27,723 nucleotides of DNA from Archangium sp. (GTDB lineage Bacteria; Myxococcota; Myxococcia; Myxococcales; Myxococcaceae). Location: the NCBI GenBank assembly GCA_031367385.1, contig JANLPS010000260.1:1-27723 (forward strand), read 5' to 3'. This document shows positions 18,001-19,619 of this stretch, in pieces (position 1 is the stretch's first letter; each line of letters starts with the position of its first letter). The position numbers were made by a program.

Positions 18001-19619
18001 TGGCGAACGAGGCAAAGGGCCCGCGGGAGGTCATCACCTCGACCTCAGCCGGGCCGAACTCGCGGTGCGCGGAGCGATCAATCGAGCCGCCGAGCATTTT
18101 CGCCAGCAATTGCAAGCCATAGCAGATGCCCAAGACCGGCACGTTCAGCTCGAAGACCTCAGGCACGCAGCGCGGAGACCCCGGTGCCTCGACCGACGCG
18201 GGGCCACCCGACAGAATGATGCCTTTGGGGGCGTATTTCTGAATGTCCGCGAGGGGCAGATCGGGGCGGTGAATCTCGCAATAGACGCCAAGCTCGCGAA
18301 CCCGGCGGGCAATGAGCTGGGTGTATTGGCTCCCAAAATCGAGAATCAGAATTTTTTCGTGCGTGGCCTGCACCGTTGCCTCCGAGAGCGTGCTGCATGT
18401 CTTGCGTTGACATGGGGCTCTACCCCTTCAAGACTCCAGCCCGCAATGAACAAGCGAACTCGGGCGGCGATGTCTGCAGCACTTCTTCTCGCTGCATGTG
18501 CGCATGAGATTACGTCTGACGAGCGACTCGACCGTGAGACCACCCACACCGACTCGCTCAAATCGAGCACGGCGGCTGAGCTGGGCAAGCTGCGCTGCGA
18601 TGACATCGGCACCGACTTGACCAAGGCCCGCGATGCCAACCGTACAGAAGAAGAGCGGTTGGGCGCCTACACCGAGCTGTATTCGCAGCTCAAAGGGCGC
18701 ACCGCGAAGTTCGACGAGGCGATGTCGAGAAACCCCGACCTCGCCTTTCAGGAGGGCAGCCAAGACCTGGTCGCCTCGCGTGACGGGTGCATTCAGTCAG
18801 CGGCCGATGTGCGCAATGAGCTCGAGACGCTGGTGCGAGAGATCATGCAGGTGCTGGTGGTCGAAGACGTTCGCTCAGGCCAGCAGGTCAAGGTGGCGCG
18901 CATCGATTTCGCACCGTTGCGCACGGCAATTGACAGGCTCGAGCTCGATGACCGCGAAGTGATGCTCTCGAAGATCACGACGGCCGAGAAGCAGGTCGAC
19001 TCGAAGCCCGAGGGCCGCGGCAAGCGCCCGAAGTGATCCGGGAACGCGAAGTCTCGCGTGAGGGGTGAGAAGGTGAAATCCCCCCCCCGTGAGCCCGCCC
19101 ACTCATGATGTGCCCGCCCGCTCATGATGAGCCCGCCCTCTCATGGTGAGCCTGTCGAACCATGGGGAGTCCAGTCACCTCAACTTGTCAGCCCCGCAGG
19201 GTAAACGCCTCAGGTGGGCTTTTACATCTACATTCTTCGATGCGCCGACGGCTCCTTCTACGTCGGTCACACGCGAAACCTCGAGCACCGCGTTTGGCGA
19301 CATCAATCGGGTCAGTTCGGCGGCTACACGGCGACGCGCCTGCCGGTCGAGCTGGTGTTCTGCGAAGAAATGATGAGTGTCAAAGAGGCGTTCGAGCGCG
19401 AAGTTCAAATCAAACGCTGGAGCCGAGCGAAGAAGCTTGCCCTCATCGCGCGGGACTGGGCCTTGCTGTCGAGGCTCGCGCGAAACCGCAGTGACCAAGG
19501 GCGTGGTTCGACAGGCTCACCATGAGAGCTCGTTCGCTCGCCCGTGGTTCGACAGGCTCACCATGAGATTCCCCTCCCTCCCGTCCCCTCTCTCCCGTGC
19601 ACTCATTTCCCCGGCCTCA

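What a model noticed while it worked through the whole genome (the two positions that open the first line are those of the whole stretch)
19130..19570. REP family (TTCGA-N4-CTCA) paired with a small GIY-YIG nuclease instead of a RAYT transposase
An uncalled ~95-aa GIY-YIG gene is bracketed by inverted copies of a 22-bp repeat found about 130 times in this genome, and a paralog (C321:30749-31036) is followed by a sister repeat found about 66 times. We think these small GIY-YIG proteins are the cognate mobilisers of a phylum-spanning REP/REPIN family. That would be a REP system run by a GIY-YIG nuclease instead of an HUH tyrosine transposase, and possibly a new small sequence-specific DNA enzyme.
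Evidence so far: Repeat A (GGTTCGACAGGCTCACCATGAG, up to 2 mismatches) has 128 matches and repeat C 66, mostly outside Pfam-bearing genes. The uncalled gene was found by tblastn at 52% identity to g04086 with an open frame, one inverted copy upstream and two downstream. Of 97 homolog loci (Sphingomonadales, Chloroflexota, Burkholderiales, Acidobacteria, Myxococcota and this genome's two), 63 carry TTCGA-N4-6-CTCA within 150 bp: 44 upstream, 58 downstream, 39 on both sides; 0 of 97 shuffled flanks do. Control: 0 of 30 loci of the housekeeping UPF0213 GIY-YIG g02527. 8 of 12 relatives with the gene have at least 12 exact motif copies, against at most 5 in 21 relatives where it was not found. The sister species [...]
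(Added by a program. Inside this text positions count along the whole contig: contig position 1 is position 1 of the stretch shown here. "Call 12" and the like, gene names such as g00115 and contig names such as C1 are that model's own, and its searches are not shown. The text may have been shortened before it was handed on; [...] marks where a part breaks off. The agent that wrote the report below was given it as the finding of a first reader that could run no searches.)

Follow-up and report, generated by a model that had tools for sequence, protein, structure and literature searches.

The report
Ssn-like nuclease with matched hairpin repeat
A tiny nuclease gene sits between inverted copies of a DNA hairpin found about 130 times in this genome; across many bacterial phyla one amino acid of the protein tracks one base of the hairpin, so it is likely a second, separate lineage of the single-strand DNA cutter-plus-repeat systems published in 2025, and its role in spreading the repeats is untested.

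Summary
A 103-codon GIY-YIG gene (19214-19525) lies between inverted copies of a 27-nt repeat with 129 genomic copies; its paralog carries a sister repeat (about 70 copies). The concept is published: Chenal et al. 2025 (PMC11893778) described Ssn, small GIY-YIG ssDNA nucleases flanked by cognate hairpins, and drew the RAYT/REP analogy. This protein is not in that group. It falls in a separate, UPF0213-like clade, and 0 of 80 loci match their SRM motif. The clade has its own hairpin, CCG(T/C)TC(G/A)-NNN-TGAG-N5-CGAA-N'N'N', beside 64 of 80 and 61 of 80 homologs. In Sphingomonadales 11 of 12 gene carriers have at least 30 copies, against 3 of 88 non-carriers. New here: residue 60, on the catalytic-Glu helix, predicts one tag base on held-out loci (F/Y with C, 32 of 33; L/I/M/V with T, 64 of 66). 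That argues for direct recognition rather than cargo. 'Mobiliser' stays inferred: the gene is inherited vertically, has no near-identical copies, and a hydrolytic nuclease cannot join strands. The scan has noted such cassettes on other DNA many times. New variant of a known kind.

The parts
19090..19137 (+). Tandem 19-bp units, each a degenerate copy of flank plus the 5' half of repeat A
   Evidence: family D1, spacing 19; one population contig lacks one unit
19138..19164 (+). Repeat A copy 1, tag-first on + (tag points away from the gene): tag CTCTCA, stem TGGT/ACCA, core GAG-CCTGT-CGA
19214..19525 (+). Single-domain GIY-YIG gene, 103 aa, GTG start; Y6, Y16, R26, H30 and E63 intact; V56 and F60 on helix 56-67
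19502..19528 (-). Repeat A copy 2, tag-first on -; it contains the gene's stop codon
19543..19569 (-). Repeat A copy 3, direct repeat of copy 2 at 41 bp spacing
18446..19036 (+). Left neighbour (context): lipoprotein-like ORF judged from its N-terminus, no Pfam hit
19617..21089 (-). Right neighbour (context): guaB, IMP dehydrogenase

Best explanation
The gene encodes an intact single-domain GIY-YIG protein that likely binds the flanking hairpin as single-stranded DNA and likely cuts a few bases 5' of its tag, as SsnA does, and these nicks, mended by host repair, would be what seeds new repeat copies. Shown: the gene-hairpin pairing across phyla, a conserved tag plus three covarying stem pairs, intact catalytic residues, purifying selection, co-occurrence of gene and repeat abundance, and residue 60 tracking one tag base. 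Inferred by analogy to SsnA: ssDNA specificity and the cut position. Inferred from helix spacing (56, 60, 63 are i, i+4, i+7): the tag is read next to the active site. Most weakly inferred: that nicking causes the spread. I put cognate nuclease-substrate pair at about 0.8 and cause of spread at about 0.45. The gene behaves like a RAYT, long-resident at fixed sites and often lost, not like an active insertion sequence. The lineage is separate from the published Ssn group and closer in sequence to UPF0213.
For: Pairing; the nearest copies point tags-out in 48 of 54 upstream and 52 of 57 downstream cases. The only tags-out repeat A pair within 3 kb in this genome is the one around this gene; the other 14 close inverted pairs are tags-in. 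Stem pairs hold in 162, 155 and 155 of 164 copies across several stem sequences. Y6, Y16 and E63 sit where the Ssn-type rows have conserved Y, Y and E; SsnA Y6A, Y17A and E64A abolish cleavage. dN/dS median 0.10 over 56 unsaturated pairs of 78. Genome level: 11 of 12 carriers against 3 of 88 non-carriers with at least 30 copies; genomes with only Ssn-type genes, 1 of 30 (hand tally). Sister species G001 has 0 repeat A copies and no clade gene. Residue 60: NMI 1.0 on 62 labelled training loci of 80, next column 0.26; held-out 32 of 33 and 64 of 66; one origin of the F/C group rejected, p-AU 0.019; four genomes hold two paralogs, each flanked by its predicted variant. R56 goes with G at the preceding base in 154 of 156 loci, non-R56 in 3 of 9; this protein has V56 and its repeat has T there. 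34 of 129 copies have an upstream tandem duplication, 17 copying only the first 7-20 bases.
Against: No biochemistry. No empty allele or new insertion in the 6 runs laid. Within-genome paralogs are only 49-77% identical, and gene distances follow era distances (rho 0.90), so nothing shows recent movement. The genome counts are not corrected for kinship, and 12 of the 13 carriers also hold Ssn-type genes. G211, G240 and G217 (77, 43, 48 copies) and G014 and G020 (137, 167 loose-pattern matches, not inspected) have no clade gene found. 14 of 80 GTDB loci lack the paired hairpin. Only 1 independent contrast for residue 60 lies on starred branches, 17 on the best tree. Repeat C copies carry C in 24 and T in 40 cases although their partner has L60, and L362 is L60 with C. 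The R56 rule was formed after seeing this protein, and R56 is also common in housekeeping UPF0213 (23 of 29). The hairpin is not unusually stable by nearest-neighbour folding (z about 0).
Confidence: 0.6

Rival explanations
1. The protein is the cognate ssDNA nuclease but is kept for a host function, such as trimming incoming or recombining ssDNA or resolving hairpins at forks. The repeats multiply by another route, and repeat-rich genomes simply retain the gene.
For: SsnA lowers transformation by NTS-bearing DNA (PMC11893778). Vertical inheritance and dN/dS 0.10. No copy in viral contigs; the three closest plasmid-database hits are large records of 0.4-2.8 Mb, the one opened typed non-mobilizable.
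Against: 129 copies here against none in the same-genus genome, matching gene presence, with no Y1 transposase in the genome. The gene is patchy: 15 of 251, 18 of 201 and 13 of 101 genomes, in about 54 contexts among 80 loci (crude count).
Confidence: 0.22
2. It is simply a divergent member of the published Ssn family, and the repeat is an SRM variant missed by their search pattern.
For: Same size and architecture. The tag CG(Y)TCR resembles the CGTCA tag, CTTGT loops occur in SRMs, and TGTCA-tagged hairpins with the same TGAG-N5-CGAA core lie among these repeats in G044. W69 is shared with Ssn-type proteins and not with housekeeping ones.
Against: Ssn-type rows form their own branch (SH-aLRT 99, length 1.12, quick tree). 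80 of 80 clade proteins score higher on the housekeeping profile than on the Ssn profile. 0 of 80 loci match SRM, and 1 of 34 Ssn-type loci has a loose clade-type match.
Confidence: 0.1
3. The gene is passive cargo or an RNA-level partner: the repeats are spread by something else or act as transcript hairpins, and they merely collect around the gene.
For: Repeats are enriched between convergent genes (26 of 84 against 369 of 3403), as REPs with RNA roles are. The repeat end seems to supply a GGAG before era in Sphingobium.
Against: Residue-base covariation with repeated origins; no other gene in this genome is enclosed tags-out; no fixed orientation to mRNA (A 31:20, C 7:19).
Confidence: 0.08

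Closest known systems
Ssn nucleases with NTS/SRM hairpins (SsnA, CDD cd10448; Chenal et al. 2025, PMC11893778)
   Same: Single-domain GIY-YIG of about 95 aa, flanked on both sides by an oriented tag-plus-hairpin repeat that is also dispersed through the genome; equivalent catalytic Tyr, Tyr and Glu; the RAYT/REP domestication idea is stated in their Discussion.
   Different: Separate protein clade, closer to UPF0213 by profile score; the repeat has a 4-bp stem around a GAG-N5-CGA core and a CCG(Y)TCR tag, and does not match SRM. I found no residue-to-base rule in the main-text parts I read.
REP/REPIN elements with RAYT (TnpA-REP, HUH Y1; PMC8266576)
   Same: Intergenic tagged palindromes, inverted doublets and arrays, an adjacent low-copy enzyme gene whose presence tracks repeat abundance, and little sign that the gene itself moves.
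   Different: No HUH motif and no covalent tyrosine intermediate, so no strand transfer; no GTAG tag; no PF01797 in this genome.
CGTC-tagged REP superfamily (Di Nocera et al. 2013, PMC3733652)
   Same: Related tag and 5-nt loops; reported there as lacking a dedicated transposase.
   Different: The tag has one more pyrimidine and the stem is shorter; four motif strings of this repeat were not found in the 4 readable supplements. Their Figure 2 consensus sequences and supplement S5 could not be seen.
UPF0213 / YazA small GIY-YIG proteins (PDB 1ZG2, 1YWL)
   Same: Best sequence and fold matches (E 1e-13; Foldseek); shared C10 and Y38.
   Different: Housekeeping members form their own branch (SH-aLRT 98), have no flanking hairpin (0 of 27), and lack W69 and W82.

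Membership tests
Ssn (cd10448) | Single-domain GIY-YIG under 150 aa with intact catalytic residues | tested here: met
Ssn (cd10448) | Falls in the cd10448/SsnA clade | tested here: not met
   using as proxy 34 proteins gathered with the SRM-flanked gene of A. lipoferum 4B, one of the paper's 29 defining genomes; N. meningitidis SsnA itself was not used
Ssn (cd10448) | CDD assignment to cd10448 by rpsblast | not testable with these tools
   no CDD library is offered
Ssn (cd10448) | Flanked by SRM elements (published degenerate pattern) | tested here: not met
   0 of 80 loci; the window copy needs 4 mismatches; positive control 14 of 34 Ssn-type loci
Ssn (cd10448) | Flanked by a cognate, genome-dispersed, oriented hairpin | tested here: met
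Ssn (cd10448) | Site-specific cleavage of ssDNA only | not testable with these tools
   needs purified protein
REP/RAYT | HUH Y1 transposase (PF01797) next to the repeats | tested here: not met
   none in the genome
REP/RAYT | Short intergenic palindromes, hundreds of copies, doublets and arrays | tested here: met
   regular tags-out doublets in G262
REP/RAYT | GTAG tag | tested here: not met
   the tag is CCG(T/C)TC(G/A), and CTCTCA here
REP/RAYT | Enzyme-dependent cleavage and strand transfer of the repeat | not testable with these tools
   strand transfer is not expected of GIY-YIG chemistry (established knowledge)
Housekeeping UPF0213/YazA | Groups with YazA-type proteins and has no flanking repeats | tested here: not met
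Insertion sequence | Near-identical copies at several sites, or a target-site duplication | tested here: not met
   paralogs 49-77% identical; no direct repeat enclosing the cassette

The most novel reading that the evidence does not exclude
A second lineage of minimal GIY-YIG nucleases, distinct from Ssn, itself drives the spread of a REP family across many phyla by nick-and-repair, with no transposase, and reads its tag through a two-residue code (positions 56 and 60 on the catalytic helix) that can be switched by single substitutions.
Probability: 0.3. Interest if true: 0.8.

Novelty: new variant of a known kind. Interest (0 to 1): 0.55.

Why it matters
It widens the Ssn-like pool of roughly 95-aa sequence-specific ssDNA nucleases to a second clade with a different target. 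It gives a direct test of how such a small domain reads sequence, a question a reviewer of the Ssn paper raised: swap residue 60 and see whether the preferred base follows. This genome holds two enzymes, two repeat families, and neither RAYT nor Ssn-type genes, which makes a clean natural cross-test. If nicking proves to seed new copies, it would explain how REP families without a transposase multiply.

Tried and rejected
Replication-strand polarity: the long one-strand runs come from truncated listings; fetched G262 stretches hold both strands as doublets. In this genome unpaired clusters lean 63:32 to the C-rich strand by a codon-skew proxy (A and C pooled at one of three thresholds; single tests p 0.02-0.12); I do not rely on it. 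The era dN/dS columns were out of frame and are ignored; era was redone in frame. The repeat C counts labelled C26 and C22 used a wrong slice and are ignored. The count of 3' heptamer repeats was mis-phased and is ignored. Target-site duplication: none seen; relatives are too diverged for base-level junctions. Rfam: no real match. Promoter scan: none. Viral contigs: no relative. Sequencing runs: no RNA holder listed. The careful tree did not finish; the quick tree is cited, with 40 of the 80 GTDB loci left out for time. Gene copy number against repeat number among carriers: rho 0.49, p 0.10, not significant. Paper searches for the motif strings, UPF0213/YazA/YhbQ, COG2827 and REPIN/RAYT with GIY-YIG found no description of this clade.

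Full report
What is there. Between a lipoprotein-like ORF (stop at 19036) and the convergent guaB (stop at 19617) lie 580 bases. They hold a 103-codon GIY-YIG gene (19214-19525; PF01541, E 1.5e-16) and three copies of a 27-nt repeat: one upstream and two downstream on the other strand, the first of which contains the stop codon. Upstream are 19-bp tandem units made of flank plus half a repeat. The repeat has 129 genomic matches at up to 2 mismatches and none in 3 shuffled genomes. They fall in 94 clusters: 67 singles, 14 close inverted pairs and 13 direct arrays. Copies are enriched between convergent genes (26 of 84 against 369 of 3403 gaps, crude gene calls). Contigs from two studies bridge the cassette to both neighbours; one allele lacks a 19-bp unit; no empty allele appeared. 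In relative G012 only 3 bases separate the two stop codons. The same-genus genome G001 (87% complete) has a different, broken ORF in the slot, no repeat A and no clade gene.

The repeat family. Around 80 GTDB homologs, 64 carry TGAG-N5-CGAA within 150 bp and 48 on both sides; shuffles give 0.8 loci and housekeeping UPF0213 loci 1 of 27. An independent set of 80 metagenome loci gives 61 and 48. The consensus of 164 nearby copies is CCG(T/C)TC(G/A)-NNN-TGAGC(C/T)TGTCGAA-N'N'N'. The three N-N' pairs hold in 162, 155 and 155 copies across several stem sequences, and the closing T-A pair also occurs as C-G. The core could form two sheared G.A pairs (recalled knowledge); standard folding finds nothing unusually stable. 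The nearest copies point their tags away from the gene in 48 of 54 upstream and 52 of 57 downstream cases. In this genome the only such tags-out pair within 3 kb is the one enclosing this gene. Loci come from Pseudomonadota, Chloroflexota, Myxococcota, Nitrospirota, Thermodesulfobacteriota and others.

Gene presence predicts repeat abundance. In 101 genomes of the order of G042 (a Sphingomonas), 13 carry the gene. Leaving out the seed genome, 11 of 12 have at least 30 pattern matches (median 100) against 3 of 88 non-carriers (median 1). Genomes with only Ssn-type genes reach 30 in 1 of 30 (hand tally). Kinship is not corrected, and 12 of the 13 carriers also have Ssn-type genes. Among 40 closer relatives the three carriers have 62, 95 and 404 loose-pattern matches, but two non-carriers have 137 and 167, which I did not inspect. 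This genome has no PF01797 and four GIY-YIG hits: housekeeping, the two clade genes, and one in a long frame.

The protein. The model is confident (pLDDT 88.7) and matches UPF0213 and Slx1-type folds. Y6, Y16, R26, H30 and E63 are conserved in at least 79 of 80 clade members. At the rnc-era site dN/dS has a median of 0.10 (56 usable pairs of 78), and protein distances track era distances (rho 0.90, Mantel p 0.0005, 14 loci). Only 8 of the 30 best-matching genomes of that genus retain the cassette there; one looks frameshifted, and others keep a repeat stump or a CGTC-type doublet. Paralogs within a genome are 49-77% identical. So the gene is old, selected, site-resident and often lost, as is written of RAYT genes (PMC8266576).

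A residue tracks a base. Among 62 of 80 training loci with a labelled tag, residue 60 split the two tag types perfectly (F 19, L 43; NMI 1.0, next column 0.26). On 144 further loci the tie proved to be to the fourth tag base, not the last. After removing duplicates and loci with no hairpin, 102 remained: F/Y with C in 32 of 33, L/I/M/V with T in 64 of 66, one tie and two other residues. This held-out set includes the window gene (F60, C) and its paralog (L60, T). On a tree built without column 60 the residue changes 17 times and the base 18 times; 9 of 10 contrasts agree and none reverses. Only 1 contrast rests on starred branches. An AU test on a random 36 of 142 rows rejects a single origin of the F/C group (p 0.019). 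Four genomes hold two paralogs that differ at residue 60, each flanked by the predicted variant. After the fact I noted that R56 goes with G at the preceding base (154 of 156; non-R56, 3 of 9) and that this protein has V56 while 100 of 105 repeat A copies have T there. Residues 56, 60 and 63 lie at i, i+4 and i+7 on helix 56-67. Against a strict code, repeat C copies are 40 T and 24 C.

How it likely works. By analogy to SsnA, which cuts ssDNA a few bases 5' of its tag and ignores dsDNA, RNA and the complement, the protein likely nicks the tag-first strand when DNA is transiently single-stranded. Hydrolysis leaves free ends and no covalent intermediate (established knowledge), so any copying must come from host repair. 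The upstream tandem duplications at 34 of 129 copies fit repair at that spot, but slippage fits too. The tags-out layout would place cuts at the outer edges of the cassette on opposite strands. All of this paragraph is inference.

Comparison with what is known. Chenal et al. 2025 (PMC11893778; I read parts 1-6 of 11 of the main text, and Supplementary Data 5, and ran term searches of 13 of 14 supplements and of the review file; figures were not visible) describe the same architecture for cd10448 proteins and make the RAYT/REP comparison. This clade is outside my proxy for that group. A quick tree of 111 rows gives three groups: Ssn-type (34 rows, support 99), housekeeping UPF0213 (29 rows, 98) and the remaining 48 rows with the window protein (unrooted). 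The window protein scores 148, 90 and 67 bits on clade, housekeeping and Ssn profiles, and 80 of 80 clade proteins prefer housekeeping to Ssn. SRM matches 0 of 80 clade loci and 14 of 34 Ssn-type loci. The repeat still looks related to CGTC-tagged REPs (PMC3733652; I read part 1 and passages, and searched 4 supplements; its Figure 2 and file S5 were not visible): similar tag, shared loops, and TGTCA-tagged hairpins with the same core in G044. For RAYT I read the abstract and introduction of PMC8266576. Eight library searches turned up no description of this clade or repeat; subscription papers are not covered, and the clade must lie somewhere in the Fig. 5a tree I could not see. Earlier notes of this scan report similar cassettes in many other genomes; they gave leads, not support.

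Verdict. A real and well-supported nuclease-hairpin pair that works like Ssn/SRM but fails two of its membership tests: a new variant of a known kind. The added value is a distinct target and a testable recognition residue. Mobilisation remains unshown. Interest 0.55.

Noticed in passing
L176-L205 (rnc-era gap in the genus of G043): Genomes lacking the cassette often keep the last bases of the downstream repeat, with a GGAG just before the era start, and several carry a CGTC-type doublet in the same slot. The tag may have become the era ribosome-binding site, or the tag may be a target sequence.
   Followed up: partly
L212 (G044:C2:620001-640000): 34 matches to the core in 20 kb around the nuclease gene, with CCGCTCA-tagged and TGTCA-tagged hairpins interleaved and sharing the same core.
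   Followed up: partly
Genome-wide repeat A copies, e.g. C50:43318, C101:14406, C310:23678: Many copies end in several tandem copies of a 7-base unit from the 3' arm, and their upstream flanks are poor in T on the tag-first strand.
   Followed up: no
L025, L035, L036, L040, L059, L061, L070, L071, L074, L076, L077: A second long-held site in Sphingomonadales downstream of glyA (glyA-nrdR-gene-RNA methyltransferase in L128); 7 of the 14 loci lacking a recognisable hairpin sit here, and some use a C-G closing pair.
   Followed up: partly
12 of 13 clade carriers also carry Ssn-type genes, against 30 of 88 non-carriers: some hosts accumulate both systems, or assembly quality links them.
   Followed up: no
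L120:2290-3480 (G001): The sister species has a frameshifted ORF with a Rossmann-like N-terminus in the same lipoprotein-guaB slot, so this gap takes different inserts.
   Followed up: partly
window:21099-23342 +: Hsp70-family protein with an extra N-terminal region of about 200 aa and no Pfam hit there, followed by a Ser/Thr kinase-TPR gene (23339-26032); typical of myxobacteria by recall.
   Followed up: no
window:19120: All contigs laid read T where the window has G, in a tandem unit.
   Followed up: no
L005, L030, L079, L081, L326, L333, L354: The exact repeat A 22-mer also occurs in homolog loci of Chloroflexota and others, which hints at horizontal exchange of the cassette; the tree cannot resolve a donor.
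   Followed up: partly
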